DNA from: a bacterium
Lineage (GTDB): Bacteria > Patescibacteriota > Microgenomatia > UBA10105 > UBA927
Length of the DNA stretch: 64,000 nucleotides
Assembly (NCBI GenBank): GCA_021817785.1
Contig: JAKAFY010000005.1
Span: 553-64,552, forward strand
Direction: 5' to 3'
Position 1 is the stretch's first letter; each line of letters opens with the position of its first letter. Below, one piece after another: positions 26,921 through 49,000 of this stretch. Both the position numbers and the translations under genes were made by a program. The notes beneath the pieces are model-generated. The model saw nothing but the letters and a program-made list of their open reading frames with translations. It did no database searches and was not told the origin of the DNA.

Positions 26921-27044
26921 TTTTTTGGTATAATTCCATAGTTGGGCCTGTAGCCCTGCCCGCAATGCTTCGCATAGCGATGCAGGCGGGTTAGTTGATA
27001 TATAGGTTCATACCTACTGTATTTGTGTTGATGAAGAAATTGTT

Positions 27045-27117: not shown

Positions 27118-27187
27118 CAACATAATTTTTAATTTTAAATTTACAATTTTCAATGAAAATTAAAAAGTGAAAATTTCAAATTTAATG

Positions 27188-27258: not shown

Positions 27259-27287
27259 CAAAAAAAGAAGCCCAAGGGCTTCTTTTT
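27259..27287. terminator. bidirectional intrinsic terminator
   Basis: GAAGCC-CAAG-GGCTTC hairpin flanked by an A-run (27259-27266) and a T-run (27283-27287). It serves both the tRNA pair (+) and the small minus-strand ORF ending at 27302. Confidence 0.6.
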
Positions 27288-27517: not shown

Positions 27518-28070
27518 AAAACCAGTTTGTCTAAATTTTTTTGTTTTGTCAATCCCTCAGTTTTTTTGACAGCAGAATACGGGTAATTTATTTCGCCAAT
27601 TATCCCGGGATGGGGGAAGGGTAAGGAATTCTTTACTGAAACAAAAACGTATAGGAAATGCGAATCAGGGATTTTGATGATATAGTTAGCATATGTTTGA
27701 AATGGTCATAAAAACACGTGTTTATGCGCACTTTTTAAAAAATAAAGAACCGATTGCTGAGCTGTACTGATATAGTCGGGGATAGTTGTGAAAACCGCTC
27801 CTTGACAGTGCTTACTAGATATCATCATAGTAATAATACTGCACCTGATGTATGGGGGTTTGGGGACACCGGGTGATTTGTCTTTGAGGCGTGTACTTAT
27901 CTACGATAAACAAAGCAAAGAATACAGTCAATACCCCTGCTTGCCCGCAAGACATTGAACTATCCTCTCATTTGTATCACTTCTTTATAGATCGATATAC
28001 AAATAAATTTCACAACCGTATCGAATCCACTGAAAACGGTTTCGCACAAATCCTGCCGCTCATCCTGCTT

Positions 28071-31000
28071 ATGGTGTTTGCGCTCTCAACGTTTCTGATC
28101 GTCTGGCGGGTGGGCCAGCAGCGGCAGACCGGGGATCTGCGGCAGTTTGCGACGGGAGACGTGTATCAGAATTGTGTCGGGTTAAGCGGACTAGACTTGA
28201 CGATCTGTCAGGAGACAGGCGTGCGGCCAACGCAGCCGCCATATATACCCCCACCAAGTCCGACTAATGCTCCACCAGCCGCAACAAAAACTCCTGATCA
28301 GATTTGTGCCGCACAACCGCAAAACCAACAGGATCAGTGTTATTTGAACCTACGCAAACCCACGGCGACCGCATATGTAGTGCCGCCGCATGTAACATTT
28401 CCCCCTACGCCCATACCAACGGATCGTGTGTGGTGTACGCTACGATGCAAAGGTGACGCGGGCTGCATTTCGGGATGCTCTCTGGGGTTACCATACAGCA
28501 CTCCTGTACCGACGGTTCCCACGAAAGTTCCGACTGTTGTAACCCTCGCTCCCATTCATTCGATTTCCGAGGGGATTGGAAACGGATGTTCTGATCCGAA
28601 ATTAACTGCAGATCAGAGGAGCAAATGTCTAGCTGCTGCAGTGGGCAATATTTCCGTTGCTCCTTCGCCGGTGAGCGGAAACTTCAGCAAATCCTGTCAA
28701 GCCTGTGTGAGTGTGCGCGGATCGGTTGGTGCATGCGCTAGTGCGTGCGGACTTACATCATCGGTGACTCCTGCGCCGTCTCTTATCGCGTCCGTTCCCA
28801 CGCTCAAGGTGACCCCGGCCCCACAGGTCGGAGCCAGGATAGGATTTGGAGTCGGTACAGGGGCATTTACTATTCCTATCGTCACTCAAGCATCAATTGT
28901 CAGCACTGTAATGAATTTGTGGAATCAATATATCAGTCATACTACACCAACGCCGGCTCCTGCTCCTTTAACAGCTACAGGGGGTAATTCGAATGTAAAC
29001 GCCTCTGCTGTGAAACCGACAACGCTCATCCCGGGGTCAGGATGCTCGATACTTCCGTGGGACAGCAATAACTGTAAAAATTGTCCGGGCGGCAAATGGC
29101 ATCCCGGGTGGACGGCATCCTGTGATGCAAACCCCGCGCCTCCGGCAAATCAAAATCTAAGTAACAACGCACCCTCGACCGTGCCGTCTCCTGCGTCCGA
29201 AATAGCACATCCGGTGAATCAATCGCCGGATAATCTGACTATCGTTCCGTCGACTGTTCCGCCGCCCGTTGTGACACCTATTGTCCCTACGGTTCCTCCG
29301 AATCCCGGAACATCGGTGACTCCTGCCGTTACCCCTATTATTACACCCATGCCTGGCGCTGGTCTGGCATGTTCGGGAAGTAATGTGACCGTGGGCAACG
29401 TTGCCGTCGGAGGACAAAAGTACGGTCCGAATGGCGATGTAACACGAAAATGTACATATGACCCAACAACGCACGAAACCGCATGGGTGGAGTGCCCGGG
29501 GTGCAAAGTGACCGTCGGCACGCCGGAAGTCATGGCTGCGTATAAGGCACAAAATGACGCATTTGATGCCCAACTCAATATGCTGACGCAAAACATACTG
29601 AATTGTATGTCGAGCGGCAAAGACCAGGTGACCTGTCAGGCGGAATATTTATACGGACTCGGAAAACAATCCCCGGCATATCTTGGCTTATTGCAGGATC
29701 AGATCTCTGTCCAGATAAAGACAAGCGAAGCGCAGGCCACCTATAACCAAAAAATGGAACAGCATGATTTGTGTATAGCACAGCATCAGGACAGTCCGAA
29801 CCAATGCCGCGGGTATGAACAGGCAGCGCTTATGGCGTTGCAACAGGTGGGATACGACACTACAGACGCAAAAACAATGGCAGCGCTCACAACCGCGTAC
29901 CAGACGTATATAGCTCAAAAGGCATCAAACCTATTCCTAAGTGCGGAGGTTGCATACGCCGGATGTGTGGCACAGCAAAAACAAGATGCCGGTATAAATT
30001 GTTCCCAGTATCAGAAGAACGCAACTGATGCGATGACGTATGGCGGCACGCCTACGGCAGAACAACGGGCCGCGAGATTGCTGCGATATAGTAACTATCA
30101 GAAAGCAACAGATATATGGAATACTCCGAATAGCGTGGTCTGTCCCACAGTAGATTGCGATCCAGAACAAAGAAAACAACAGCGTGTAGCCGCCCTTAAT
30201 ATGGATCCAAACGATGCGCAGTTGGCTCATGATAATTGGTTTGCAAATATTGCCTATAGTTTGCAATACGGCACCGTAGGAACTATCGAAAGGGTGGGGA
30301 AGATTCTGGCGACCAAGCCCTCGGATTGTAAAGATACCGCATCCTGTCTAGATGTTTTGAAAAATACGTTGACGGGTGAGCAGTATGCACAGGTAAAAAC
30401 GCGCGTGGATCAGTTAGCGCTCGCCGATATAAACAATGCGCCTGATACGACTGCACTCTCATTCGCAAAAGATCACAAGAATGACCCCATGTTTAAAAAT
30501 GTGGATACAAATGACATAAACGCCGTACGTTTGGCGATAGATAATTCATTGCCGCAAAATTTGCGACGGGCATCTCTGGCTCACCTAGCTCAGCCTGCGT
30601 CGAGCGGTGGTACAACTGCCGCGTCGACAGAAACACCGCTTGCTAAAGCATATGCGGCTTATCGAAATGATCTATCTCTTGACGCTTCTACACGAACACT
30701 ATTGGGAAAACCCTCTTCAGACCCATCGCTCACCGTCGCAGAAGCAAATTTTTATACGACGCAGCAGAATAATTTGAATACACTCTGTTCGCACGTAAGT
30801 GTTCAGGATTGTGCATTATATTCCGCACAATTTAAGGCAGGAACTATTGTTCCCTCCGATGCTGCCGCAGCGTACCAGAAATCTTCCCTAAGTTTTTCTT
30901 TCCGTATTCCGACATTTTTGACCACATCCCAATCAACAAAAAAAGTAGGCGCTGGAAAATCAGGGACAGTCACCGTGACGACTCCATTATCAAAGGTACA

Positions 31001-34000
31001 AACCGGATCTATCGATATCAATATTGCGCCTGTACAATGGATGGATTCTGCATTCAACTGGATCCAAAGGCAACAAATTGCCCTCACCCCGTTCCGTCCT
31101 GGAGACTATGCGCAAAAAAATACGGAAGCACAGTTGGTGTTACTCGCAACTGATCCCGCAAAGCAAAAGGCTGTATTTGCTGCACTAGATCAAACCGCTG
31201 ACTACCGCAAATTTGCAGCCTCGCTGCATGCGAGCAATGTAGATCCACATGAGGCGTACATTACCCAACAATTGACGAAATTTTATCAGAATGAAGGATA
31301 TTTACAGAATGCTGGAAAATTTGCGCCAACAACGGTTGATAACAGTAAGCAAGATTACGTCACATTGGTGATGCGGGGAGATGTGAACGTTTCGTCTGCT
31401 GTTTCGTCCATTGGGTTGGGGAAGATGGTTGGAGGCGTGTATGCAAATACGTTAACTGCGGTAGGTGATACCGTATTAAGTCCCATACTTAAACTGACCC
31501 ATCTTACTCCGACAATAAAGGTTGCAAATCTTGTAAGTGGCGGTGTGACACCCGAGGAAAATCAGACAGCAGATACGGTTGTTACCGCCTTGATAAGAAC
31601 GAATAGTGCTGCATGGGATGCGTATGTGCAGCAAAAATCCAAAGATCCGGAGTATCTCGCCTGGGCGCAGAATAATCCAAAAGATTCATCGATAGTCGCG
31701 TTTGCCAAATGGCAGTACGCGCAATCGCTGGCGCTTACCGAAAATATGAAAGCGGGCGGATATGAGTTATCGAGTGCTCAGGATCTATTTACCAAGAGTC
31801 CAACGTGGCTAACCGACGGGGTGCTTGCCGGAAAAATAAATATCGGGGACATCAAATCCATCCTTTCTGCCAGCCAGCAATCCGTGACGACCGATTTAAA
31901 CCGCAACCTGACAATACTCGAAACAAATAACACCAACCTTCCGACTTCTTCGTATCAAGCACGCCGTCAAGCTGCGTTTGCACAGTTGCAAACAAGTGTT
32001 CTGAATGCCCAGGCAGATGCATTGGTAAAGGTATATCAGGAATCGCAAAATACCCCGGAAGTACTGGCAGCCCTGCAATCTAAACTTACCGCGCAGCACA
32101 TCACGACAGACCCACTTGTCTATCAGCAGCAGCAATTGAAGGCGTACTTATTAAATCCCGATACGACGTTTTTATTGGGAAGCGGAGGCACCACAGTTGA
32201 TGTGGCAGGGATCATGGATGGAACGTACGATATGGCCGCTGCCAGCCGTGCATATAACGACCTCAATAAACGTCCGCTGGAATCGTTTGTTTTTGCCATT
32301 AATAAATTTGAAAAGGGCTCGTATTTACAAGGTCAACAGTTGTTGAGTGATCCAAATTCTTCCCTCTATGACAAAGGGAGAGCGGTTGTGATGATGACGG
32401 CAAAGCCTGTGGGCACGGTGTTAATGTTGGCCGCCCCTCCGTTGCGAGTTCTTCAAATCGGCGTGAATGCAGTGACCGCGGCAGATGTGCTTGCTATCGG
32501 CGGTGAGGCACTTGGATTTCAGATGACGGGCTCCAGCGCGGCGGATACGGCGGTAGCCTGTACATTGCGTCCTGGTATGGACGCAGCCGGATGCGCGACA
32601 AATTTTGGCATGATGGTATTTGCCGGATGGAGCACCCTTTCGTCTGTCAACGCCGTGAATTCCATAGCTGAAACGGCGATGATCAAAAGCGGACAAAATG
32701 TAGGATTTGTTGAGCGATTCATGAATTCAAACAAGCTCTTGTCTGGCTTGGTGCCTGACGGAGATAAAGCACTTATTCAGGCAGCGGCATTGCGAAATGG
32801 TGTGATACCGGCGACCGCAGACAATATCGCTGCGCTTGAATCTGCGGTTGCAAAGGCATATGCGCCGGTGGCGCACAATGCATTTGCGGAAGGAGCACGC
32901 AATGCATTAGGGACGGCGGTGTTTGGGTCTGCGGCAATTCAAGCATGTTCGCAGGAAGGCCTGAATGCAGATTGTCTTTCCCGGGCAAGTCTCGCATTTT
33001 TGTCGTTATCCCGGACGATCCTTCCTTCTCAAGTGGTTTCCAATACGAATGCACTCGCTGGGCAGACTGTCATGCGGGCAGATCAGCTCACTAATGCCGC
33101 CCTTGCAGGGCTTTCGTGTAGTGCGGCGGCGTTGGGTAAAGGAAGTCTGGATGACTGTATTACCACTGCCATGATGAGCGGGATGACGTTTGCCGGAGAA
33201 GCAGTCCAAAAGGCTCAATCCAGCTCAAACGGCCTCACGCTAAAAAATCCGTTTGCTGCCAAAGAGCTGGCAATAAAAGATTTGTCGTTGCTTGAAAATA
33301 TGAAGGCTACCGATCCGCCGATTATCATGGACGGAACACCGGTGAATTTTCTTGATCGTACGGTAGCGGCAGATTCTGTTCGCGCGCGCTTAGTGCAAGC
33401 GACGATCGAATCAAGAATCATTATCGCACAGGGAAGTGCTTTGGCGGCGGGATTTAAAACATTGCCCGCAGCAGATCAGACGATTGCGCAGCATGCGGCG
33501 GTGACAGCTGGGGATGCATGGAATAGTTTGTTTACGGATACCGGTGCGCTCCGCCCTGGAGTTGCGGATCAAGTTATGGGTGCGCGTCAGGCATTAACCA
33601 TTGCCTCATCCGAGTTAGCACGGGAAACTGCGTTACTTACCGATCCCCGAAACGGAGCGCAACAGGCGGTAGATCGGTTATTGGGGGTGAGAAGCAAAGA
33701 TGCTGCCGCATTGGCGGACTTTCATACCGCGCGTGAGGCATATCTTGAGCTTGCCCGATCCGCGGAATACGATCCGGCAACCGGAGTATTACGCAATGGA
33801 GAAACGTTGGCGATTGCCGAACAACGACTGGCCCGTGCGGGCGAGACGCTTTCGCTCGTAAACGCATCGCGTGGGGAGATATGGTATGCCACGCATCTTA
33901 ATCAAACCCGTGATGCGTTGGCAGTTATCAACCGTCAGATTGATATTGAAACGCTTCAACAGCAATTATTATTGGATCAAGCCAAACTTCCGGATGTGCG

Positions 34001-37000
34001 GCGGCTTGCCCGCGAACAGGCAGATGCTGCCCAGATACATCTTCGTACACTCGAACAGACAAATGCTTCCCCGGAGGTGCGCGCTATTGCACAGGAAGCG
34101 CTGCGTTTGGCAACCGAACGGCTGTCTGCGGCTGAAGACGTCGCAACGCATATCCAAAATCCTGCTGACATTGCGTTATACAGAACAGAACGCGCCAATG
34201 CCTTGAGCACATTACAAGCACGGGCAGAAACAATACAGGGAGAAATGACGCTGTTAGCCGCAGGACAGAAGGCGGCACAAACGTTTGGCGGCAGGCTGGC
34301 GATCGCAGTACTGGGTCTTCCTGATCAGCCGACCCCGTTTGCGGAATTGATTGGCAGAACTCCCGAGCAGATCGTACAAGCCCGGACCACGGCGATTACT
34401 GAAGTAGGCAAGCGGTCGCTTTCCAATATCGAAGATCTTGTTAATGAAACGATTGATGTGATGCGCGCTTCCAGTGATGGGACGATAACGCGGGAACGGG
34501 CGATAGAAATCGCCATGGATGAATTGTCTGCTACTGATGCGAAAGGAAATACAAAGATCTATACTGATGCGCTCGCTCAGGCCAAGGAAGCATTAATGAA
34601 GCAGGGGATCACCAATGAAACAACCCTTGCCCGGGAATCCATGCGCATAGCCAGAACTGTTGCGGATCAGTTTGTCGCAAACAATGAGGCTATCCGCGCC
34701 GCACTGGCAAAAGGAGAAAGCCCTGATGTCGCGTTTGCCATCAGGCAGAGTACGGCGAGTAAAGTATCGACTGCGATCGTAAATTTTATAGAACAAAATA
34801 CCGTCGGCCGCATAAAGGTATACCAGATCCGTCAGGAAAATAAGGCCATGCTCTCCCAGCTTCGGGTTGCGCTCAAAGCCGAATACAAACCTTTGGTAGA
34901 AAAATTGGCAAATATCAATAATGACCGGGGTGGCATATCACTGTCGCAGGAAACCAAACCCGGCGCGAATGATGCATTGATCGCTTATGATACGCATAAA
35001 AGTGTAAAGCCCGGAAAATTAGTCGTCGATGACATCAAACTGACGGATACCGGAAGAAAAGCAGGACTGACCGAAAAGGATGTCACCTTCCTCAAAGATA
35101 ACCTTCAATCGATCCAGGGCGTTCAGGGATATACCGCCCATACGGAGCAAGTGGATTATATCCTGGCGTTTTTGGAATCTCTGGGAGACGGAAACGCCCG
35201 CCGTATATACGGCGCCGTCATGGGACTCGGGAAAACCGATTTCGTCATGCCGGCAACCACATTACTTCAGGCACAACTATCGGATCAGACGCAGGTGATC
35301 GTATTTCCGGAAGACAAACTCATGAACCAATACCTGGGCGGGAACTCACAAAAAATGCTGGATTTGTTTAAAGCAAAAATTGATCCCAAGGGGGAGGGGT
35401 TGGTGCTGGTGGTAGATCCGTCCAAGCCGCCGTCCGCTGAAGCCATCGCCAAGGCAAAAGTGATCATTACCACGCGTGATATCGCGTTTCTTCTGGATGC
35501 AACCGATGCATCAGGGCTTGCGATGCGCGCCAAATGGCGCGGGGCGTTTATCCAGTCGGATGAGGGACACTGGACGCTCAATGCGACGGAAAGCTTCCGG
35601 ACGAGTTTTGGAAAACAAACACAGATCATGCAGACGGATTCCGGTAAGATGAAACGCGTAGCCATAGCCAGTGTCGAACAATTACAAAGCGTCAGAGAAC
35701 TGATTGATCTTGCGAAAACGGGAAAACTGACGGACGCCGAGGTCAGGCGGAACGCGGATAAAACAGGAAGTTTTACGGACCCGACTGAGCAGGAAATTCT
35801 CCGTGAGTGGTTGCAGAAGAAAAAGAACGCAGGGCAGCTGCCCCCAGCCTTAGAGGCGGCATTGCAGGCGGGTTCCGTTGCGGATATGCGGGCAAAGATA
35901 ACGGAATTTTTTGATACCAACGCGTCTGCCCGCACCGGTCCGTTGGGAGCGGAGATTTCTGTAATCGGCAAGCTTGCAGATTTGTTTGCTGCAACCCCCA
36001 AGGTAGAGTATGGGGCTGCGTCGTTTGATAGAAACGGTACGTTGGTTGATATGATTGCGCCGCTGGATATGACAAAGGCAACCGGCCGCATGTACCAGGG
36101 GGAATTGGAACAATTACTGTACAACACCATCGGCGCGGAGATCGTCGGAAAGAATATAGATCTCACTAATCTTGTGTCAAATAGCCAAAGCCGGGACATA
36201 AACTTCGGGCTGCTTATGTTGGAAGCCAGCGGGTTTGCTATCTACACCGGTACTCCGGAGCTTATAGCGCCTTTGTATAAAAGTGCATATGGCATTGATC
36301 TGACGCAGTATGGATTAAACGCACATGAGGTGGTAACCAAACAAATAAATACGGGACTGGCGTCACAACAATCTCAGGTGTTTCAATCAACCGACGATGC
36401 ACTGACAAACAGACTCCATAAAGGAGAGCCGGTCGCAATAGTAAATCTCCGTGATACGCTCTACCGCACGAATGAATCCGCGTTTGAGACGATACAGCGT
36501 CATCTCGATACGGGTGATCGGCTGTATGTTGCGAAAGCCGCCGGGGGATTTGAAGAATATGTCCGTCTTGCGGATGGCTCTATGCAGAGGGTAGCAGTGT
36601 ATACGGATAAAACCGGGATAAATGCGAGTATCGCTAACCATATAACAGAGCCGATTGTCGTAATGTATGAATTCGGGGCACATACGGGTGTAGACGTGAG
36701 TCTGCCCGACAATACTCGGGAACTGGTGTTGACGGACACGAACTCCCGCATCAATGAAACCGTGTTTGATCAGGGGGTCAAACGCGTACGTCCGGATACT
36801 GCGTTAGTTGATGTCGTGCATGTGGGTGGAGACGGGACAATTGAGTCGGTGTATAGACAGTTAGATGTTCAACAACGGCAGGACATGGCGCTTGCGGAAG
36901 TGCAATTTAAAGAGACGCTGCTTCGCAATTCCGTCGATCAATTATTGTCCCGCTTGAATGCCGTACAAACGACAACTGCAGGCGGTATCACCCAGGGAGT

Positions 37001-40000
37001 GGATTATGCGGCACGTCTGAAAGCGCTGCAAGATCAATGGCAGGTAACGAAAGATCTTTCCTACGATTTGTCGACGCATAATATATCCGCACAAGATAAA
37101 TTACAGCGAACACTGGATCAAGTGAAGTCGATGTATGGGGAAATCTACGCGTCCATACAAAGCGACGTAACACTACGTGCCGCTTTTGCCGTATCCGCCG
37201 GGGATACAAAAGATCTTGCAATTAATTTACAACCGGATCCGAAAGGAGTGCATAAGCTTTCAGCGGTGTCGTCGCTTGCGGATGTGGTAACGTATATCAA
37301 CAAAAGTACCGACCCCAAGGTTATTGCCGATGCGGGGGTGACGTTCACCGAACGGGGGCCGTCTGCTGAAGCGGTGACGGCAGATGCACGCAATGTGCAG
37401 CCGACCAACATCATCGCAGATGGCGACGCAATAACTGCTGAAACGATAGCCGCGGAAAACCAAGCCCGTCAGGATGCGTTGGCTAAAAATTCCGGCAACG
37501 GAAATAATCCGACGTTGCCGGGCTCCGGCCCACAGACCCCCGGCGGTAGCGGCCCTGTACAGCCCGGTGGTGCGGGAGGTGGGCCGGCAAATAATGGTGG
37601 CGGTGGTACGACAAACACTGGCGGTGGGGGCGGGACAACACAATCAAACGGTGGTGGTTCCACACAAAATACCGGCTCAGTCAATACTGGTTCGAATACA
37701 ACCGGTCCGACGACCGTGTCGCAGATGACGTCGCAAGCACGGCAGGCAGTCATACGCGCTGCTGTAGACACATCGGGTACACAACCCGTGGTGCGTGCAG
37801 GTATTTCTCCGCAGCAAACGCTTCAAGCACTCGCTGCTGCAACGATTGAGGCGCAAAATCTTCGGAATAATCCATTTTCCCGCATACGAATATTACCGAT
37901 TGCCCGAACACTTGAGAGGCAGGAACAAGCGGAACTTGCCTTGGCGGATGCGCTTCAAGGGCCGGTACAAGCGGCGATTGAACAGGAACTTGGGGTAACA
38001 CTTTCGGGAAGCGGATTGCCCGCCATCGCGTCTGCCCGGGATAGTGCCGTAAGTTATTTGGCGGCGCTTGCTATAGGAGATGCTGATGTCGCGCAATCCC
38101 ATCTGACCGATTTAAACAAAGCAATTGAAAATGTGGCTGCAGCACAAGGGTCGGCATATACAGGGAGGCAAACTGCGGACATAGCGCCGCATATTGTTGC
38201 TGCATTTCTGCCGCCATCTGCAGTGACAGCGAAACCCATAATTCAAACCATATCAGGGCAAATCAATACGAATACGGTATCAAATCCGTCGACATGGAGA
38301 GCCACCATAGGAATTATGTGGTCGGGGATCAAACACTACGGCTTTAACCCGAATCCATTAACGCTGTTTACGATATTCGGCAGCACAACAAATCGCTGGG
38401 ATGTATTGGGACAGGTGGGGGGGTGGATAATGTTCCGTATCGCCCCGCTCTTTGTACCCGGTGGTCAGTTTGTCGCCGTACCGCTTTTGGCGTATGACGG
38501 TGTCCGATTGATAACTTATCCGTTCCGTGCGTTGGCCCGATTTATATTCACGCGTCCGATGATTCGGGATATTGTAATTGGGAAGTCCGTCGCCCAATTA
38601 GCACTCCGATGGCATCTGAATCAGACAATGCTCAATATTTTGGCGGGGAGCCGGAACGGATTTTTTGAAAGCTATGTCAACGCCGTTCCCGGTTGGCCGA
38701 AAGGGACGACATTTTTCAAGGGATTGATTGGGACATTTACGTGGGCGAGTCGTTTTCAGGCAATGTGGGGATACGATGCATTCCGGTTATTGCGGCGGTA
38801 TACGCAGCAGATCAATCATATCGCTGATACCGATATGCCACTTCACCAACTGCCGGTGACCCAGCCGAATTATTGGGACACAAACGGATTCCTACTGGGG
38901 TTTGTCCCCCGGGCACTGGTGAATGCAACCCCACGGAATAATCTTTTTGGATATTTATTGACCCGATGGCTCGTACCCATCGTTATCACGTCTCTTGTAG
39001 CGCCTCTATTAATGTTGATACCGGTCGTAGGTCCGTACATTGCCGTCATGGTGGTTGCCATCATTATTTCCATGCCGCATTCATATGATTCCCATAGGTT
39101 GTGGCATGAGGGAGGATGGCAACATGCCGATATCTGGAATACAAAAAAAGGTCATATTACTCCATGGGCATCGTGGGGCGCGACCGTGACGATTACCGTG
39201 CCCGCGCCGCAACAGTTTTCGAAGGGAGTATTGGAAGCAGGACACACGTTGGTTCGCGGGGCAACGATAACGGTTACCCGTCGGGACGGAAGCGTGGAAA
39301 CCGCAATACTGGATACCGTATCCAATGATCGTATCGCAGCAAATAATTCCTGGACCATCCGGTCTGCTGCAGATAATTCCGTCATTGGCTGGGTAACACA
39401 AGGAGATATTACGGTAAATATGTCACCCGCCATAGCATCACAGCCCGTTGTCCCAATACCGTCAGGAGGTCTGAGCGCTGCTGATATCGACGCATTTGCG
39501 GAAGCGCTCACGGGTCCACAGGTTCAAACCTTGTTCCAGCGTGAAATCGCATTTCTCCCGTTAGGCTGTTCGGAGTGTACTGATTTCGTAAAACAGAGCA
39601 TAAATACACATCTTGCTGCTGCGCAGCAAAAGATTGTGGCTGGAGATCTGGCGGGTGCGATTGCTCAACTGGATCAAGCGCTTCATGAGATAGATATGCA
39701 TGTCAAAAATCACACCGGCGGTCCGGTAAATACGATGCTCTTTAATCTGGTGCGCTATGTTATATTGCGTCACCAGGCTGCGTTGTATACCGCTCTCGGT
39801 GATACAAAACATGCAGCCGATGTCATGGCAATAGCCCGTTCGTACCGCGTAAAAGCGCTTATTGAAATAGATACTAAAATCCATGCGTATAACGCAGGAG
39901 ATACGCGGTTTGAAGCGATCAATGACGCACTTTCGTACTATACCGCGCAACGGGAAAAAGATTTCAGTGACATTCTTTTGATGCAGGACGCAAACCAAGC

Positions 40001-43000
40001 TCAGCAAGCGCTTGATGATCTGACGGCGGAGATTTCAAACAGACCGACGAACCCGACCTTGTGGGATCGTGTTACGGCCATGGCTGCGCGGATTCTTGTC
40101 AAACAGCCGGATCCGCTTGCCGGATATGCCACTGAAATTGCGAATGCAAACGCACATATAGCTGCTCGTCGAAATCCTCCGGTACGTCACGAAGCCAGAG
40201 TGGGGGATACGTATCGGTTTGCCCCGAGCGCGTACCCAGCAAACGTCAACGCATTAACGGGTGCTTCCATCGGAGGAGACACGACAAGTAAAATTTTGAT
40301 TCCGGGCCTGGGTCTCGGACTCTATGCATCCTTTGACAATGGCCGTTGGCAATTACATCACCAAGATCGTTTTAAATCGGGCGTCTTTATAAATACAACA
40401 CCGGTCCCTGTAAATAAGCAAGGGCCATTATCCTCTGGTGATACGATCGTCATCGGGGACGTGCGGCTTGTGGTGACTATAGATAGCGACAATAGCCTGA
40501 TGATTCATATCGAACAGCTTGTTTCCGGCCAGCCGGCGCAACACCCGGTTGTTCATAAAAATGACACACAGCATTTTGCCGCAAACGATTTTACAACACC
40601 CGACCAGGTTGTGACGCTGGGAATCAATATCTACTCGACAATCCGGTTTGATCCTGGTCAGGCACCAAGTATCCAACCGCATCATGCGCATGTCTTCAGA
40701 AATTCCGGTTCATGGATTATTACATCTGCGGATACACAGGCTACCGGCACTATCCGACGACCTGATGGTTCTGAATATCCATTACAAGGTCTCACGGGAT
40801 TGCATGACGGCGACATCCTATACCTTGGAAGCGACGTCGTCATAACGGTGAACGTTGACCCGACAACTCATGACCTCACCTTACTTGAAACGACCATAGG
40901 CGATAGCGTCGAGGTGGCACGGAATAAGACAGAAGCGCGTGCGAAGCTTCAGGCGATTATTGATCTTGGAAAGAATCCTGCAGGCTACGACAACGCGAAA
41001 TTATCAGCGTATGTTTCCGATCTGCAGACGGTTGCCGATGGGCTTGCACAGGCGGATCAGGCCGTATTTGGCACAAATACCACCGCATTATCCGGACAGT
41101 TGCATCAGGCGGCGCTTGAGCTCGGGCAGCTTGTCGTCGGGTATCATACACGCGTGTACAACAACAACGCTCCGTTCTTTGATTTTAGCCGGGTGCAGCA
41201 GATGGAAGATGATGTGAATACCATTCCGGAGCTTACGAAGGAAGAAAAAGCGCAGGTGTGGGACGGTTTCGAAAAGACGGTGTATCGGGATTATATCGGA
41301 TCGGTGTACGGCTCGATTGCCGGGATGGAAACCGAAATGTATGGTTCTTCACACTCGCTCCCGCCGTCGGACCTCGATAGCATGTCTCTGGCGGATTTAC
41401 AGAGAGAAAAAACAATGGCGGAAGGGACTTTTGCGGTGACAAACGACGCATATAAAGAATTTTTACGGGATAAGAATCGTTTTGAAACGAATCGGAAAGC
41501 GATACAGGCAAAAGCCCGGGCAATGGCGGACGCAATGAACACGGCGTTTGCTAAAGGTCAGATGACGAAAAATATTCGTGTAGAAGTAAGCCAGGAAGGA
41601 ATAATTCAACTTATTCCAGCTGATAATAGCCCGCTATTAAGTCTTCGAATTGGACTAGACACTCCGCAGGAATATATATCAGATCAAAGAGATGATGGGG
41701 CGGTTCATATAATTTTAGGGACAACCGGATTATCGGTGGCACCAGCAATACTCAATATTGAGTCAAGAAATGTGGGGTCTGGTGTCGGAAATGAAGCGTT
41801 GTCGATCATAGAAACGGTTGTTAAACGTGCAGGATTCGGTGGGATGTTGGTGCAGGGGAATACATCAGTATTGTCGTTTGGTTTTTGGTCAACAAACGAA
41901 TATTGGGTGGCGGATACAAAGCAAAATTTGGATGAGTTGCAACGGTATAGCCGTGCACGTCAAATGTACAAAATATTCGGTAAAGCATTACCGAAGCCAA
42001 CACAAGAAGTATCACGACGTGAGCAGATTAATCGATTACAGGCACAAATCTTTGGATGGTTGGCGCTGGCTCGTAGTATTAATATGTCATCCGACGAATT
42101 ACGTACGAGCATGTCTCCGGATGATTTACAAAAGTTGGTAATTGGAAAGACCAATATCTATATCGCGGGAGCGCTGGTTCCCGACGGTCTGCCGTTGGCA
42201 TGGCAGGAGCCGATTATTCTAGCGCTCACCGATCTTGAAGCCGGCGTGCCGCCGCTGGGCATGTACGATACCTCTGTACGCGTCCTGAACCGTCCGGAGG
42301 TCCATAATGCGCTCATCCAGCTTATTGGAGCAATCAAAGCCCAAACCGATGGCGGCGGCGAATATCTGAAAGCACTTGGGGAGGCAATCGTTGCCGGCGC
42401 CAACAATCCGAAAGAGATGGCAAAATTGCTGAATAACCTTACTTCGTATTGGACTACCCCTGCGAAAATACTGAAAGACTCGTCGTTGCCCGGGCGGCAG
42501 CAATTTATCGACACCTATGGGCCCGTCATCGCCAAAGGCGAGTCAGGCAATCAGTTTGCGGATGCGCTCTATACACATTACAGTGCATTGAAAAGCGAAG
42601 AGCAGGATGCTCTCGCGGCGTTATTCGCGGATGATGGAACAATGCGTACGCCGGTTGCGCACGCAATACAAACGCTGAAGCCATCGTATGCCCAAAAACG
42701 AAGGGAAGATAGCCTGACGGTGGCTGCGCGCGACGCGTTGTTGCCGGAGATCAAAACGCTTCATGCGTTCACCTTTCTGTCCGACGATGAAATAAAGAAC
42801 GAGATACCGACGGACATCACGAATCAGGTGGTCGAGGGTGCGTACGTCATGGATACGAACGTGAGCGGGGAGTTAAGCGCGCTTGCGCCGCAGCAGCAGG
42901 CTGTGGTGCGCAACGGTTTCGATGTGCGCGCGGATATCGTACGCGACGCGTGGGCAAAAAGCGATATCAGCCCGTTCGGCGCACTTTTTGATACGAATGT

Positions 43001-46000
43001 GCTGTTTAGCTCCTTGGTGTCGCAAATAGCCGATCTGCACGAGGCAGATGCCGTCAGTCAGTTCCGTGCGGCACTGTCTGCATTCCCATCGGATTTGTAC
43101 GCATCGATGAGGGCACGGGATACCGTGAATAAACCGGATGCGTATCAAATACAAGCTGAAATACATGCGAAGTACGTCGCCGCGACAATACGGGGGAAAA
43201 TAAGTAGTTCGTTCCCGATGCAAGAGCAAAGATTGTTGGCGTTTTTGAACAACGGATTACTTGAAAACAACAATCATCCCCCGTTCCCCAATTTGGAATC
43301 GTTATTGAAGTATCTGCTGATCGGTGACGTGCCGTCGGATCAACAATTCGACGAAGCGTCATTACGGGAGCGCGTTGCCTCCATGGATACCGGAGTGACG
43401 GGCCCGCTTATGGATACGCTTGCCAAAGCGATACAACAGATGCTTCCTCTTCTTGACGGGATTGTTGCCCGTTCCGAGCCGCTGCCCGCCGTAAATATAG
43501 CGCCGGGTACGACCACCACGACGCATGTCGCGTTGCTCCGTGCGATGCATGACTATAACGACAATGCGCCGCGTTCGATGCGGTTTACGCCGGCATCCGA
43601 TTTTACCCTCCGGCCGATAGAAGATCAGGTGAACGAGTTTCTGACGTTTGTCGAAAACCGCACAGGTCAGTGGACGCGTCAAACCTCCCCACGGGAGGGG
43701 AAAGTGGGGGTAGCAAATACGTTTAATGGAATGACGTTCGCTGAAGGGAAGGCCCCGTTAATCATCGGCACGAGTAAATCGAATACGATTTGGTTTGATT
43801 CAGCCGTCGCAAAATCGGTAGCAGAGAAGCACGCGGAGATATATTTGGAACTTCATTCGGATAGTCCAAACAAGCTTTGGATTCGGGCTGTAAGCGACAC
43901 TACCCCGATTACCATTTTCGATCATCGTGGTGAGAAACTACGGACTCAATCTGGTGCTGTACTCGGAGATGGATATACGATACAACTCGGATCAGACGTT
44001 GTACTTTCCGTAAAATATGACAATTATTCATATCAGTTCACTCTCACCCCGACGAAAGTAGGGGAGGCGATTACTGCGGATGCCCTTGACCAACTGCTTG
44101 CCAAATTGATCCCCGGGTATGACACGCAGAAGCTGCCGCCGGAACAGGTTACGGCGATCCGTAAGGCCGTCTACGGCTTGGTACCGGCAGGAGCCGCAGC
44201 AGAAAGCCTGGATGCCGCGCTCAAACAGCCCGCGGTGCAGGAATTCTTAACCACACTGCAGACGAATATCAATGCGCTGACCAAAGCGCAGCTTCCCAAT
44301 GTGCAGGCGATTATCGGTAATGTCCAGACGGACTATCAGACCGTCCTTGCCCGTCTACCGATATTTATCCGAGTGTTGGGGTCTGTAAATATTGCGGATG
44401 TGAACAATGTGACTATTGCACTGACTTCTATGAACGCTGCCATACAGGTTGCGGAAACAAATCCACAATTATCTGCTTTAGCGGTGGCATCGTCGGACCG
44501 GAACAGTTTTGTGGAGGATCAATCGGTCATAAATTTGCTTCGGGGAATCATTTTGAATGCCTTTGGTACCCACGCTATCATCGTTTCAGAGCTATCTCCG
44601 GATACGTATAGCTCTCTTGTTACCTCGCTAGGGGAATATGTTTGGTCACTTGCGGTTAAAACGCCATCTCTTGATGGATTTTGGGATGCTGATAGAGGTG
44701 CAATCCTTATACAAAAAGCATTAGACGAAAAAGATAATCGGACACCAGTATTACCGGAATTTGTTGAGCTCACCAATCAGGCAGTTGGATCAGATAAAGT
44801 GCTTTATATGGAAGTATATGCGGAAGAAATTTTGACGAATCGCGAAATTTTGTATTTTTTGGATTTGGCACGAACCAGAATCCTCGCACAGCAACAAAAA
44901 TTAGAAAAGTATAACGCAGATTGGAGACGCCTACAGCTTGCCGCAGAGCAGGATCCAGCTATCAAAATTGGCAAAGAATTAGAAAAATTATATCCGTTAG
45001 AGTCGAACGCTCTCATGATGCAGTCAGCGGGTGGATCACTTCAGCTTGACGAAGCCAATAGGGCTATTTCGTATATCACCGGCGTACCGATTGAAGAGGT
45101 GCAAAAAGGGAATTACCCAAAGGGTACAAAGCCGGATTTGACGCCGGAGGTGATACGTTCACGGCTCGTTGCTCACGGCGATTATGATCATGTTTTGAGT
45201 GAAACTGAAATAGGAAGACTGATGATAGCCGAGGATGAGAAAGATCATTACGATATCATGCGTACCCGTACACCGAGGTTTGCGCCGGTTGGCGGTACAT
45301 TAGATCAAAATCCGCTGGTAAATTTGCTGTTTGGACTCACCGGCAAACGGTACCGTATCCCCGCGGATAATGCGGCACTGACGGAGGAGGATGTCGTCGT
45401 CGCATTCGAGCGGAATTACGATTTTCTCGTGCAGGATTACGCTCTTCCGACACTCATTTCATCAAGTGGAAAGCCGGATGTATATTTCAATGCGCTGATG
45501 GTGGTCGCGCAAGAGAACGGAGTAGAAGTAAAACTTGTTTCCGACCCCTCGAATCCTCAACCGCAGGCCCGGGGTCTGTTCCATGGCACGCCAACAAATA
45601 AAACGATCTATATTCCGACATTGGATAGTAATTCCAACAGGGAATTAGCGCATGAATTGGTCCATGCGCTGCAGTTTATTAAACATCCCGGCATGTCCAG
45701 ACTCATGCGCGAATTTGAGGCATATCTGATATCGGATTATCCGAAAAATAGAGTACCAAAAGTCGGATATCTGAGGAAATTTTTGCAGATTATTGCGGAC
45801 ACTGTCGGTCCAACATATGTTGCCGTAGGACAGCCGATTCCGTGGGAATTTCAGCCGGTTGATGTTTCCAATAGTGCACCGGAGGGATCGGATATATCGA
45901 CGCCAGTTGCTCTTGACCAACTACTTGCAAAGCTGATTCCGGGGTATGACAAACTGAAGAAAGATCAACAGACTGCGGTTCGGAAAACGATATATGGGCT

Positions 46001-49000
46001 CGTTCCGGGAATTAGTTTTGGAGAAAACATAGATGATGCATTGCAGCAACCCGCGGTGCAGGAATTCTTAACCACGCTGCAGACAAATATAGGCGCATTG
46101 ACCAAAGCACAGCTTCCGAACGTGCAGGAGATCATCGGCAATGTCCAGACGGACTATCAGACCGTCCTTGCCCGTCTGCCGATTTACGCCCTGGTAATGA
46201 GTTCGGCGAATGTGACGGATGTCCCGAAAGCCCTTATTGCGGCACAGAAAGCGATCGATGAAGTCGAGCATAGCCCACATCTTTCCGTTGGAGCGCAAAC
46301 CGCGGCGAGCGCCAGCGTGTTTACAGACGATATGAAATTTTCAGTGACGGAGAATGTAATGCGTGCATCTCTTGGATCTCAAGGGTATACGGGGACAGCA
46401 GAAGATATTGCATTGATACATCAGCAGTATGGTATCTCAGACGACGAGTTGAATACGCTGATAACCGCTTTGTGGACGTATGTATGGAATAGAGAGAGTC
46501 GAGAAATCCAAATTCGTGATCAGTTGAATAGCATCCTTTCGGATGCCAGTCCGGAATTTAAGGCATTACCTGAATTTGAACGCGACGACATTATCGAAGC
46601 ACTGCGTATTTCTTACCCCGATAATACAACACTTGCCGCGGTCGCGACTGATTTTTCCGAATCCGGCAAACGGGCGAAAGAGTTGCATGCGTTAGTGACC
46701 TTGTTGGCACAAAAGACGTCGATAAACGATTATGTGTTAACCAGTATTATGTTGCATACGCCTCAAAATCCGGAAACATGGAGCACGTTGTACGATACAT
46801 CGATAAAGGTCAGCGCACTCCTAGAACAGGTTTCGGAATCCAATAGACAGGACCAGTCGAAACAAGCGTATCAAGTATTATTGCAGGCGATCAAATTGAT
46901 CGGGAATGATCAGACAGTCTGGTCAGTGATGCAGCGTGAAGCCGATCGTTTTATAAACGTCATCGCTATTTTAGCTGCAAAGCGTTCGGGGGGCATTACT
47001 CCCAAAGATGCACAAGCGCTGTATACTGCTCTGCGTATTCCGGTCGCGCAAAAAACGAAATATGATGGTTTATTAAATAAATCGGATTTGTCAGTACTGG
47101 GCGCTCCTGAAGCGGATTCGAAGTGGGCGGCATTTGATGCATTAGCGGTTGTGTACTTCCGCAAGGTTCCCGAAGCTCCATCCGAAGACCCACGTGTGCA
47201 GGAAATTCGCGGGCTATATGGAAGATTTGTACGATCATTATCGACGGTGCAGGGAGTGTACGTGATAAAAATGTCCAGTGAATGGGCAGCTGTTTTAAGT
47301 CTTTTGAAAGGCGGGTCTATTGTTTATGTTCCGAACGGAGCGTTGGATACAAAGTTTGAGCCGAAGGCTGTTGTCGATGCCGCAACGTTCCAATCCGGAA
47401 TTCGTGAAGCGGTGGATTACATGAATTTTCCTTCCAAAGAAGCGTATGCGAGAGCAAAAATAACCGTATGGATATTGGACAAAATGTTGTCCGTGGAGCA
47501 GTATTATGCGTCGAAGAATACGTTGAGTGTGCTGCAACAAAAAAGCGGAGAACTTGGCCAGATTGATCAACAAATAAGTGCGTTGTTGCGGACCGATCTT
47601 AGCTCTGGCACGACGCAGGAATCTTTGCAGCAGATATATGCCGCCTTGTACGCACTTCTGCCGGCAGATAGTGGTTTTCCGGCCGATGATACGAGTGAAA
47701 TAGACGCATTAATAAGCAGCATAAATACTTTTGGACAACCGAAAGAAGTCCGTCAGGTTGTCACTCATCTTGCGACAACATTCGGCATTCCGGATGAACA
47801 GATCAAACAGGTTGTCGATCAGGTGGTGGCTAATCTTAAGGATTCCACGGCTGCCGGTACGGTTCCGGCCTGGAAAGCGATAGAGGATGCGCTGAATGCA
47901 AAGCCGAAGTTTGCGAAAGACGTTTTACCGCTTATAAAGAATCAATTCGCAGCGCTTCAGAAGGCGCAAGCGGACGTATCCCGAATACAGGCGTTACTCA
48001 CTATCTACGCCCGGACGCTCATCTCCATCCCGCTCGGGAAGATAGCTGAAGCGCCAACGGTCTTATCGCAGGAACAGAAAGCGATTGCAGCGCTGGAAGA
48101 ATCAAGTTCCGGGTGGGTGTCGGATGCGACGACTATCGATGAATTCCTCGCGGACAATACACGTACCGGTACCACCAACGAAGTCCGCATTCAAACAGGC
48201 CTCAAAGATACCAAGATTCTCCAGCCGAAAGATGACAAAACCCCGAATGCGTTCGGCATAAGTCTCACAAATTACACGCGTATCGTTTCCGATATAGGGC
48301 AGTATTTGTGGAAGAAGGGGGAGGATGTCCGCACGAAAGCGATTCTTGCGATGGTAGAACCATATGATGCCCAGCGCGATGCGTCATACATCTCACGAAT
48401 CGAACAAGCGGCAAAAACGAACGGATTGCAGATTAAAGTAGTTGGATATATAGCAAAAGGAGCGCAAGGATATGTTTATTTAGTGCAACTATTAAATGCA
48501 AAACAAGTCAACATACCCGAATATGTAGCAGCTAAAGCCGACGATTTGGCACAAAAGCTAGGTGTAAATGATGCGCCGCATGAGTATGAGCTTGCCGGAA
48601 AATTACGGCAGGCAGAACAAACCGGCGAATTCGACATCAGCGACCCCTCGAAATTATATACAGTTGATCCATATGCAGTTGACGCAAAGAATAAAGTGCT
48701 ATTTGAGGAGCTGGTTCTAACGCAAAAATGGGATGATGAAAGTCAAGACGCGAAGATTTCCCGCGCAATGCAATTTGGTCATCGTACGTATTTAGTTCGT
48801 CAAGCTGGTTTCTATAATCAGGATAAGATCGGTGATTATCTGGCGGATATTAACAATAAACTTCATTTCTTTGATTCATCTTCGTATGGTACAAATCCGA
48901 AACTAGCGTTAGATGCAAATAGCCGGTTTATTACGCGCATTGTTGAAGCGCTCTATCCCGCCTCCGGTGCGACCGTAGAAAACATTTTTAGCGCACAATT

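What the first reader, a model, noticed from the sequence alone, without database searches (positions are those of the whole stretch)
35220..35570. SNF2/SF2-helicase-like ATPase motifs I and II embedded in the giant protein
The translation gives ...IYGAVMGLGKTDFVMPATTLLQAQ... (35220-35237 encodes MGLGKT). The SNF2-family motif I consensus is DEMGLGKT(L/I)Q. 113 residues downstream is ...AFIQSDEGHWTLNATES... (DEGH at 35559-35570), matching motif II (DEAH/DEGH, then a basic or hydrophobic residue and N). The 113-aa spacing is typical of the RecA-like domain 1 of SF2 translocases. A chromatin-remodeller-type ATPase module inside a giant, apparently envelope-associated protein is unexpected.
Basis: partly seen in the sequence, partly recalled or inferred. 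Interest (0 to 1): 0.6.

Follow-up and report, generated by a model that had tools for sequence, protein, structure and literature searches.

The report
SecA-like ATPase inside giant protein
The two motifs are real and belong to a conserved ATP-burning motor built into a 13,064-residue bacterial membrane protein. Its predicted shape matches the protein-export motor SecA, not a chromatin remodeller, so it probably helps move protein across the membrane.

Summary
MGLGKT (35220-35237) and DEGH (35559-35570) lie 113 residues apart in one open frame that starts near 28071 and runs off the window. The full gene is 13,064 aa on its source contig.

The motifs are not chance. They are the only Walker A and only DE[AG]H in 11,976 aa. 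They are invariant in 19 relatives of 25-40% identity, together with a Q motif and motifs Ia, Ib, III (YTGTPE), V and VI.

The window sequence itself matches no Pfam, NCBIfam, PADLOC or PDB entry. A relative passes Pfam's DEAD cut-off, and six of ten relatives hit ResIII. This makes it a real SF2 ATPase with two RecA-like lobes.

The SNF2 reading fails. No relative hits SNF2, and a 204-residue domain sits between motifs II and III. An AlphaFold model (pLDDT 78.7) matches SecA best (Foldseek E 1.9e-13, TM 0.56), with no SNF2 among the 50 best hits.

Sequence similarity to SecA stays at noise level, so SecA membership is not shown.

Divergent SecA-like domains in giant proteins of Omnitrophota were already described in a 2023 preprint. 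This is a more divergent variant whose relatives are mostly in Patescibacteria (CPR) genomes. [quoted passage not shown]
28071..64000 (+). Giant ORF that carries the module. Only part is visible: it runs off the window, and the full gene is called as 13,064 aa on the source contig.
   Evidence: There are no stops from 27888 to 64000. The gene call of 13,064 aa is on ENA ERZ27237541 k141_2559337. The true start is probably upstream, at TTG 27972 or GTG 27891, because the called ATG lies inside the N-terminal hydrophobic helix.
28050..28106 (+). N-terminal hydrophobic membrane anchor (ILPLILLMVFALSTFLIVW).
   Evidence: Kyte-Doolittle mean is 2.63 over 19 residues. Relatives have an equivalent N-terminal helix.
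35139..37358 (+). The whole conserved ATPase module, from the Q motif to the end of the conserved C-terminal helical extension (ATG-numbered aa 2357-3096).
   Evidence: It is the only block shared by BLAST with the 16 relatives found among 1.84 billion representative proteins.
35139..35159 (+). Q-motif-like element (HTEQVDY) with invariant Q2360.
   Evidence: Q2360 is invariant in 19 sequences. It lies 28 residues before the P-loop lysine.
35214..35237 (+). Motif I / Walker A, AVMGLGKT.
   Evidence: A2382, G2385, G2387, K2388 and T2389 are invariant.
35292..35333 (+). Motif Ia-like strand and helix, QVIVFPEDKLMNQY.
   Evidence: Family consensus is QFVVFPExKLMKQW, and Q2408 is invariant.
35457..35489 (+). 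Motif Ib-like element, KVIITTRDIAF.
   Evidence: Family consensus is AKxIVTTRDxAF.
35550..35582 (+). Motif II / Walker B, IQSDEGHWTLN.
   Evidence: D2497, E2498 and T2502 are invariant. The fourth position varies between H and D among relatives.
35592..36203 (+). A 204-residue domain inserted into lobe 1 between motifs II and III, at the position of the SecA preprotein cross-linking domain (PPXD). It is entered and left by long beta strands.
   Evidence: The AlphaFold model has strands at 165-175 and 359-368 flanking a helix-rich domain whose pLDDT is mostly 78-96. The best fold matches are SecA.
36081..36143 (+). Conserved signature at the end of the insert, TGRMYQGELEQLLYNTIGAEI.
   Evidence: G2672, R2673, E2680, Y2684, N2685 and G2688 are invariant. 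hhalign places it on SecA [20 protein letters not shown], in register with motif III, at P about 0.01.
36240..36260 (+). Motif III, IYTGTPE.
   Evidence: It is the only TGTP in the ORF. Family consensus is YTGTPE. hhalign aligns it to SecA MTGTA.
36300..36839 (+). Second RecA-like lobe.
   Evidence: The AlphaFold model shows alternating strands and helices at residues 401-580.
36666..36698 (+). Motif V-like element, YEFGAHTGVDV.
   Evidence: G2869, A2870, G2873, V2874 and D2875 are invariant.
36765..36797 (+). Motif VI-like element, FDQGVKRVRPD, carrying the arginines.
   Evidence: Q2901, R2905 and R2907 are invariant.
36840..37358 (+). Long helix after lobe 2 (contains EVQFKETLLRNSVD) plus a conserved helical extension ending at VTFTERG.
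   Evidence: The model has a helix at 581-619. Conservation of the extension is shown. F2946, E2948 and S2954 are invariant.

Best explanation
The motifs belong to an active SF2 ATPase of about 740 residues whose architecture is that of the SecA protein-translocation motor. It has two RecA-like lobes. A roughly 200-residue domain is inserted on a two-stranded stem between motifs II and III, where SecA carries its preprotein cross-linking domain. A long helix follows lobe 2.

The module is built into a 13,064-aa, membrane-anchored, otherwise unannotatable protein. Its relatives come mostly from Patescibacteria (CPR) genomes.

Most likely it binds and hydrolyses ATP in the cytoplasm and uses the lobe and insert movements to push polypeptide across the membrane. 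The substrate is probably segments of the giant protein itself, such as its cysteine-pair-rich N-terminal region, or partner proteins.

Shown: the motifs, their conservation, the SF2 homology and the SecA-like predicted fold. Inferred: that the substrate is polypeptide, that the protein exports itself, and that the module is cytoplasmic.
For: - The motifs are present and unique in the ORF.
- Only 16 relatives exist among 1.84 billion representative proteins, the complete ones inside very large proteins (the rest are short fragments). The ATPase block is the only part they share. Nine genomic relatives all sit in ORFs that run off their loci, up to more than 5,000 aa visible.
- All catalytic positions are invariant in 19 sequences at 25-40% identity: the Q motif, GKT, DE, motif V GxxGVD and motif VI QxxxRxR.
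- Relative P0012 passes Pfam DEAD (39.2 bits, cut-off 26) over motifs I-II. It matches the window module at E 2.3e-32. ResIII is hit by 6 of 10 members.
- The AlphaFold model from the family alignment has pLDDT 78.7 and pTM 0.67.
- Foldseek against the PDB ranks SecA and SecA2 at positions 1-7. SecY-engaged SecA 6itc_A scores E 1.9e-13 with TM 0.56 over 674 columns. MDA5, RIG-I, DinG and XPB score TM 0.30-0.40.
- hhalign against E. coli SecA gives a colinear 306-column alignment through motif I, motif II, the end of the insert and motif III.
- A 2023 preprint reports divergent SecA DEAD plus preprotein-binding domains in most giant Omnitrophota proteins and proposes self-export.
- The context is envelope-related. 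There is an N-terminal anchor, and 34 of 47 cysteines are closely spaced, mostly as pairs, in aa 95-974 (GTG numbering). A LysM-M23 peptidase lies upstream here and in relative L002. MurJ-PilN-PilO lies upstream in four other relatives.
Against: - No sequence method links the module specifically to SecA. The window sequence has no Pfam, NCBIfam, PADLOC or PDB hit.
- Profile searches of the PDB with the whole module and with the insert-to-motif-III part find no SecA.
- hhalign P values are only 0.01-0.12. The score of 25.2 just exceeds the best of 40 column shuffles, which was 24.9.
- The SecA likeness therefore rests on one AlphaFold model built from 10 sequences.
- The wing domain and two-helix finger of SecA were not modelled.
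- Topology is unresolved. The only hydrophobic segment between the cysteine-rich region and the ATPase is weak (Kyte-Doolittle about 1.5), and three more cysteine pairs follow it. Several relatives show no strong hydrophobic segment downstream of the module.
- Nothing here excludes a nucleic-acid substrate.
Confidence: 0.6

Rival explanations
1. It is a nucleic-acid-dependent SF2 helicase or translocase, either SNF2-like as the first reader proposed or ResIII/DEAD-like as in the polyvalent proteins of mobile elements. It would act on DNA or RNA, perhaps together with the methyltransferase-like region near the C-terminus.
For: - The Pfam families that members hit are the generic helicase families DEAD and ResIII.
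- Local motif wording resembles SNF2: GLGKT, DEGH..N and TGTPE.
- RIG-I-like helicases, DinG, XPB and Hna also match the model at E 1e-10 to 1e-6.
- hhalign against RapA gives P 0.03-0.12, not clearly worse than SecA.
- A weak SAM-methyltransferase match lies at about aa 11,840.
Against: - No SNF2 or Helicase_C Pfam hit appears in any of 10 members at E <= 10.
- Domain spacing is opposite to SNF2, with the large insert between motifs II and III rather than between III and IV.
- No SNF2 structure is in the top 50, and helicase matches have much lower TM than SecA (0.30-0.40 against 0.56).
- The host protein is a membrane-anchored giant protein next to envelope genes.
- The methyltransferase match is below Pfam's cut-off and lies 9,000 residues away.
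Confidence: 0.2
2. It is an SF2 ATPase with a SecA-like shape that has been recruited for another mechanical task. Examples would be remodelling or extending the giant protein, or powering attachment to or attack on a host cell, without moving polypeptide through a membrane channel.
For: - It is extremely divergent from SecA at sequence level.
- The insert is larger than the SecA preprotein cross-linking domain (204 aa against about 157 aa, the latter from established knowledge of E. coli SecA) and mostly helical.
- No clear membrane segments flank the module in several relatives.
- Thousands of downstream residues have no cysteines and no known domains.
Against: No positive evidence points to any particular alternative task. 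The closest structural analogue and the published precedent both point to translocation.
Confidence: 0.17
3. The motifs are chance matches, or the remains of a dead ATPase inside a low-information giant ORF.
For: The window sequence alone gives no significant hit in Pfam, NCBIfam, PHROGs, PADLOC or the PDB. The single-sequence AlphaFold model was poor, with pLDDT 37.6.
Against: The motifs are unique and correctly spaced. Every catalytic residue is invariant across 19 sequences of 25-40% identity. Relatives give significant DEAD and ResIII hits. The model built from the alignment is confident and has the SF2 fold.
Confidence: 0.02

Closest known systems
SecA, and the accessory SecA2, the ATPase motor of the bacterial Sec protein-export pathway
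   Same: It has a two-lobe DEAD-type motor with a Q motif and motifs I, Ia, Ib, II, III, V and VI. A large domain is inserted on a beta stem between motif II and motif III (TGTP here, TGTA in SecA). A long helix follows lobe 2. SecA is the best fold match, at E 1.9e-13 and TM 0.56 to SecY-bound SecA. The weak sequence alignment is colinear and includes GRxY...EQ..YN..G..I against [20 protein letters not shown].
   Different: No significant sequence similarity exists: no PF07517, PF01043, PF07516 or NCBIfam SecA hit, and PDB profile searches are negative. The insert is about 50 residues longer and more helical. The wing domain, two-helix finger and zinc-binding tail are not shown. The module is a segment of a 13,064-aa membrane protein rather than a free 800-950-aa protein.
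Divergent SecA_DEAD plus SecA preprotein-binding domains inside giant proteins of Omnitrophota and some Actinobacteriota (West-Roberts et al. 2023, bioRxiv 10.1101/2023.11.21.568195; also a PF07517 cluster in bioRxiv 10.64898/2026.06.07.730766)
   Same: A SecA-type motor is embedded in a giant, membrane-associated, mostly unannotated protein. No recognisable scaffold or wing domain is present. The neighbours are envelope or pilus genes. Self-export is the proposed role.
   Different: Those domains are detectable with the Pfam SecA models, and this one is not. The identifiable relatives of this family are Patescibacteria (Gottesmanbacteria, Beckwithbacteria, Paceibacterota), not Omnitrophota. 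A direct sequence comparison with the Omnitrophota domains could not be made here.
SNF2-family ATPases, such as bacterial RapA
   Same: It shares the SF2 fold and similar local wording of motif I (GLGKT), motif II (DEGH..N) and motif III (TGTPE).
   Different: No SNF2 profile hit is found. The insert is in a different place, between motifs II and III and not between III and IV. Lobe 2 is compact. No SNF2 structure is among the 50 best fold matches. hhalign to RapA gives P 0.03-0.12.
The 2,947-aa hypothetical protein of Legionella geestiana plasmid NZ_CP041715.1, which contains a SecA-like region
   Same: It is another case of a SecA-type motor embedded in a very large uncharacterised protein.
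   Different: That region is clearly SecA by sequence, with hhalign probability 99.9% and E 4.9e-31 against a SecA profile. It shows no detectable similarity to the present family (P 0.29).

Membership tests
Superfamily 2 (SF2) helicase-like ATPases | Walker A / motif I of the form AxxGxGK[ST] | tested here: met
   AVMGLGKT lies at 35214-35237. It is invariant in 19 relatives.
Superfamily 2 (SF2) helicase-like ATPases | Walker B / motif II of the form DExx, about 100 residues after motif I | tested here: met
   DEGH lies 113 residues downstream, and D and E are invariant.
Superfamily 2 (SF2) helicase-like ATPases | A second RecA-like lobe with motifs V and VI that carry arginines | tested here: met
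   YEFGAHTGVD and QGxxRxR are conserved. The model shows two alpha/beta lobes, with 185 fold matches at E <= 0.001 and the top 50 all SF2.
Superfamily 2 (SF2) helicase-like ATPases | A significant profile match to an SF2 family model | tested here: met
   The window sequence alone gives only ResIII at E 0.097. Relative P0012, which matches the window at E 2.3e-32, gives DEAD at 39.2 bits (cut-off 26) and ResIII at 23.8 bits (cut-off 22.5). ResIII is hit in 6 of 10 members. Membership is therefore by transitivity.
SNF2 family | A match to the SNF2 N-terminal domain profile (PF00176) and to Helicase_C | tested here: not met
   Neither family is listed for any of 10 members at E <= 10 or for the window sequence.
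SNF2 family | Motif III close to motif II, with long helical insertions between motifs III and IV | tested here: not met
   There are 226 residues between DEGH and TGTP, and only about 60 residues between motif III and the first strand of lobe 2. The SNF2 layout itself is taken from established knowledge.
SNF2 family | Closest structures are SNF2 ATPases | tested here: not met
   No SNF2 entry is among the 50 best Foldseek matches.
SecA family | A DEAD-type motor of two nucleotide-binding lobes | tested here: met
SecA family | A preprotein cross-linking domain inserted in lobe 1 between motifs II and III on a two-stranded stem | tested here: inconclusive
   A 204-aa domain is inserted at exactly that point, with long strands at both ends. 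The whole-chain fold match to SecA has TM 0.56. However, there is no PF01043 hit, hhalign reaches only P 0.01-0.12, and no per-domain superposition could be made.
SecA family | A significant match to SecA sequence profiles (PF07517, NCBIfam SecA) or to SecA chains in the PDB | tested here: not met
   Searches find none.
SecA family | Helical scaffold domain, helical wing domain and two-helix finger after lobe 2 | tested here: inconclusive
   A long helix follows lobe 2, at 581-619 in the model. About 150 more conserved, apparently helical residues follow. These were outside the model, and there is no PF07516 hit.
SecA family | A free-standing soluble or peripheral protein of about 800-950 aa that docks on SecYEG | tested here: not met
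   The module is residues about 2357-3096 of a 13,064-aa protein. Docking on SecYEG cannot be tested with these tools.
SecA-like domains of giant proteins (West-Roberts et al. 2023) | A SecA-type motor embedded in a giant protein with membrane segments | tested here: met
.
SecA-like domains of giant proteins (West-Roberts et al. 2023) | Recognised by the Pfam SecA_DEAD and SecA preprotein-binding models, and clustering with the Omnitrophota giant-protein clade | tested here: not met
   There are no Pfam SecA hits.

The most novel reading that the evidence does not exclude
The module represents a separate, previously unrecognised lineage of SecA-type motors. It exists only as a built-in segment of the giant proteins of Patescibacteria. 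It works in cis as a self-contained export engine, which lets bacteria with very small genomes put surface proteins of more than 10,000 residues across their membrane. The insert would be an enlarged, helix-rich version of the preprotein clamp adapted to this one substrate.
Probability: 0.3. Interest if true: 0.65.

Novelty: new variant of a known kind. Interest (0 to 1): 0.45.

Why it matters
How bacteria make, fold and export proteins of more than 10,000 residues is an open question. The only conserved, recognisable engine in this protein family is this ATPase. If it is a built-in SecA-type motor, giant surface proteins carry their own export machine.

The finding would extend the 2023 observation in Omnitrophota to the symbiotic, small-genome Patescibacteria. 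It would also add a family so divergent that standard annotation sees nothing in 13,064 residues.

It gives concrete, testable residues (K2388, D2497/E2498, R2905/R2907) and a module of about 740 residues that could be expressed on its own.

Tried and rejected
- Direct profile scans of the window sequence found nothing significant: Pfam, NCBIfam, PHROGs and PADLOC.
- phmmer of the module against the PDB and of all 11,976 visible residues found nothing.
- The word-indexed homologue search found nothing, either with the single sequence or with the family alignment.
- The single-sequence AlphaFold model was unusable, with pLDDT 37.6.
- Profile searches of the PDB found no SecA or other helicase, both with the whole-module alignment and with the insert-to-motif-III sub-alignment.
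- A search with E. coli SecA, meant to build a diverse profile, returned only sequences at least 89% identical. I built an 11-sequence SecA/SecA2 profile from plasmid records instead.
- hhalign of the family against that profile gave P 0.08-0.12. The score was 25.2 against shuffles with mean 17.9, SD 2.9 and maximum 24.9. This is suggestive but not significant.
- hhalign against single E. coli sequences did not separate the families. P values were 0.011-0.013 for SecA, 0.03-0.12 for RapA, 0.014-0.029 for DinG (12-15 columns only), 0.07-0.10 for DeaD and 0.09-0.16 for HsdR.
- The Legionella giant protein did not bridge SecA and this family.
- The organism name could not be obtained.
- I rejected the SNF2 reading, chance motifs and a dead ATPase, for the reasons given under the rival explanations.
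- Self-BLAST shows no internal repeats in the giant protein.
Full report
**Observation**

The bases at 35220-35237 read ATG GGA CTC GGG AAA ACC (MGLGKT). Those at 35559-35570 read GAT GAG GGA CAC (DEGH). Both lie in one frame that is open from the stop at 27885 to the end of the window. The first ATG is at 28071, which gives at least 11,976 residues.

The same gene is called as 13,064 aa on a 73.6-kb ENA contig, with no Pfam hit on record. It also occurs in NCBI assembly GCA_021842445.1.

**Chance**

- The ORF contains exactly one [AG]xxxxGK[ST] (0.8 expected).
- It contains exactly one DE[AG]H (0.09 expected in the ORF, about 0.001 in the 120 residues after the P-loop).
- It contains exactly one TGTP.

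**Relatives**

The window sequence alone matches nothing. This holds for Pfam, NCBIfam, PHROGs and PADLOC, for PDB sequences and for the word-indexed protein search.

An exhaustive phmmer scan of 1.84 billion representative proteins found only 16 relatives. The complete ones are very large proteins (up to 6,637 aa), and the rest are short fragments. They share 27-40% identity with the window over about 650 residues. BLAST shows that this block, roughly aa 2265-3120, is the only part the giant proteins share.

Nine further copies were found in species-representative genomes. All sit in ORFs that run off the fetched loci, with up to more than 5,000 aa visible. The informative record titles are Candidatus Gottesmanbacteria, Beckwithbacteria and Paceibacterota.

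**Motifs**

The family alignments show conserved blocks at the canonical SF2 positions:

- a Q motif (DQ)
- motif I, GALPGxGKTD
- motif Ia, QFVVFPExKLMxQ
- motif Ib, AKxIVTTRDxAF
- motif II, DEx[HD]WTxN
- motif III, YTGTPE, which follows a variable-length insert
- motif V, YEFGAHTGVDT
- motif VI, TTFxQGxNRxR
- the block EVQFKETLLRNSVD after lobe 2

Thirty-six positions are invariant in 19 sequences. They include Q2360, A2382, G2385, G2387, K2388, T2389, D2497, E2498, P2729, G2873, V2874, D2875, Q2901, R2905 and R2907. Such conservation at 25-40% identity argues for an active ATPase.

**SF2 membership**

When each family member is scanned separately, six of ten hit Pfam ResIII and two hit DEAD. 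Relative P0012 scores 39.2 bits on DEAD (cut-off 26) and 23.8 bits on ResIII (cut-off 22.5), across motifs I-II. P0012 matches the window module at E 2.3e-32. The window module is therefore an SF2 ATPase by transitive homology.

**Structure**

AlphaFold2 with the ten-sequence alignment gave a usable model, with mean pLDDT 78.7 and pTM 0.67. The single-sequence model was useless. The model shows:

- lobe 1 (residues 14-164)
- a long strand (165-175) leading into a helix-rich domain, and a long strand (359-368) leading back to lobe 1 and motif III (383-386)
- a compact lobe 2 (about 401-580)
- a long helix (581-619)

Foldseek against the PDB gave 185 matches at E <= 0.001. Ranks 1-7 are SecA or SecA2:

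- 6itc_A, SecA engaged with SecY: E 1.9e-13, TM 0.56 over 674 columns
- 5eul_A: TM 0.55
- C. difficile SecA2: E 2.2e-10

MDA5, LGP2, RIG-I, DinG, XPB and Hna follow with TM 0.30-0.40. No SNF2 protein is in the top 50.

**Sequence comparison with SecA**

hhalign of the family against E. coli SecA gives a colinear 306-column alignment at E 0.015. It passes through four landmarks:

- motif I
- motif II (DEGHWTLN..SFG on DEVDSILIDEARTPLIISG)
- the end of the insert (TGRxYQSxAEQLLYNTVGAxI on [21 protein letters not shown])
- motif III (YTGTPE on MTGTAD)

This is not significant on its own. Against an 11-sequence SecA/SecA2 profile, P is 0.08-0.12 and the score is 25.2. Forty column shuffles gave mean 17.9, SD 2.9 and maximum 24.9.

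Single-sequence controls gave P values of 0.011-0.013 for SecA, 0.03-0.12 for RapA, 0.07-0.10 for DeaD, 0.09-0.16 for HsdR and 0.014-0.029 for DinG. The DinG alignments cover only 12-15 columns.

Profile searches of the PDB with the whole module or with the insert-to-motif-III part do not retrieve SecA.

The SecA likeness is therefore architectural and structural. It is not demonstrable by sequence, and I do not file the module as a member of the SecA family.

**Against SNF2**

- No SNF2 or Helicase_C hit appears in any member at E <= 10.
- The large insert lies between motifs II and III, and the gap between motif III and lobe 2 is short. This is the reverse of SNF2.
- The fourth residue of motif II varies among relatives (H or D), so DEGH is not diagnostic.

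**Context**

The window is bacterial chromosome. It carries, in order:

- the end of 23S rRNA and a 5S rRNA
- glycosyltransferase, methyltransferase and DUF2298 genes
- Rho
- a LysM-M23 peptidase
- two tRNA-Ala genes
- the giant gene

The giant protein has an N-terminal hydrophobic anchor. The called ATG start cuts that helix, so the real start is probably TTG 27972 or GTG 27891.

Thirty-four of its 47 cysteines are closely spaced, mostly as pairs, in aa 95-974. Three more pairs lie at 1557-1756. There are none from 1757 to 3892, a stretch that includes the ATPase (GTG numbering). Relatives show the same pattern.

A weakly hydrophobic Ala/Gly/Pro-rich segment lies about 900 residues before the P-loop in the window and in most relatives. 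Its status as a membrane span is unclear. I therefore infer a cytoplasmic position for the ATPase from its need for ATP, not from a topology prediction.

Relative L002 also has a LysM-M23 gene upstream. Four other relatives have MurJ, PilN, PilO and an Fn3/Ig protein upstream.

**Literature**

West-Roberts et al. (bioRxiv 10.1101/2023.11.21.568195) report that most giant Omnitrophota proteins, and some from Actinobacteriota, carry divergent SecA DEAD and SecA preprotein-binding domains without the scaffold and wing domains. They suggest that these domains export the giant protein itself. A 2026 preprint finds a 20-protein PF07517 architecture cluster among long Omnitrophota proteins. I found no report of such a module in giant proteins of Patescibacteria.

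**Verdict**

The general SF2 reading is right, and the SNF2 or chromatin-remodeller reading is wrong.

The best explanation is a very divergent SecA-type motor built into a giant envelope-associated protein, most likely moving polypeptide. I put confidence at about 0.6 for the mechanism and about 0.95 for an active SF2 ATPase.

It is a new variant of a kind already described in a preprint, so I rate its interest as moderate.

Noticed in passing
window 27891-28106: The gene callers' ATG start at 28071 falls in the middle of the N-terminal hydrophobic helix (ILPLILL-M-VFALSTFLIVW). Relatives have 10-20 residues before the equivalent helix. The true start is therefore probably TTG 27972 or GTG 27891.
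   Followed up: partly
window 28170-33160 (GTG-numbered aa 95-1756): 40 of the 47 cysteines of the visible protein lie here, mostly in closely spaced pairs. There are none in aa 1757-3892 and none in aa 4622-8889. The same layout recurs in relatives: many pairs, then a weakly hydrophobic Ala/Gly/Pro-rich segment, then one to three further pairs (three in most). The membrane topology this implies is unresolved.
   Followed up: partly
window 28071-63998: The giant protein has no internal repeats (self-BLAST at E < 1e-6 finds none). It has no significant Pfam or PDB sequence match anywhere in 11,976 residues apart from the ATPase module.
   Followed up: yes
window about 63410-63710: A weak SAM-dependent methyltransferase match (Methyltransf_31/11/12/23, best E 4e-4, about 20 bits, below cut-off) lies near residue 11,840 of the giant protein. 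The window ends soon after it.
   Followed up: no
window about 37520-37715: A glycine-rich, low-complexity linker (GGSGPVQPGGAGGGPANNGGGGTTNTGGGGG...) lies about 55 residues after the conserved ATPase module ends, and marks its C-terminal boundary region.
   Followed up: no
window 38940-39070 and about 54560: Strong hydrophobic segments lie downstream of the module. One is a pair at GTG-numbered aa 3685-3726 (Kyte-Doolittle up to 2.62), and one is at aa 8890 (2.08). Several relatives show no such segments downstream.
   Followed up: partly
window 35285-36199, minus strand: A 304-aa antisense ORF overlaps the ATPase module. The plus-strand frame is the one conserved at protein level in relatives, so this is most likely a shadow ORF.
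   Followed up: partly
window 23772-25571: The Rho termination factor is 599 aa long. Its RNA-binding domain starts only at residue about 213, so it has a long N-terminal extension.
   Followed up: no
window 26944-27259: Two tRNA-Ala genes (anticodons CGC and GGC) lie between the LysM-M23 peptidase gene and the giant gene. ARAGORN's tmRNA call at 26944-27118 overlaps the first tRNA and looks like a false positive.
   Followed up: no
window 1-592: The window starts with the 3' end of a 23S rRNA gene, followed by a 5S rRNA gene.
   Followed up: no
L021 (Legionella geestiana plasmid NZ_CP041715.1, CDS 453-9296): A 2,947-aa 'hypothetical protein' contains a clear SecA-like region (hhalign 99.9%, E 4.9e-31 against a SecA/SecA2 profile). 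It is another SecA-type motor embedded in a very large protein and is unrelated in sequence to the present family.
   Followed up: partly
L004, L005, L006, L008 (first about 4.7 kb of each): In four related loci the giant gene follows directly after MurJ, PilN, PilO, a small membrane protein and a roughly 600-aa protein with Fn3/Ig-like domains. In L002, as in the window, it follows a LysM-M23 peptidase gene.
   Followed up: partly
L001, L004, L006, L007 record titles: Several genome records that carry this Patescibacteria-type giant gene are titled 'uncultured Gammaproteobacteria' or 'Pseudomonadales'. This may reflect mislabelled or contaminated metagenome bins.
   Followed up: no
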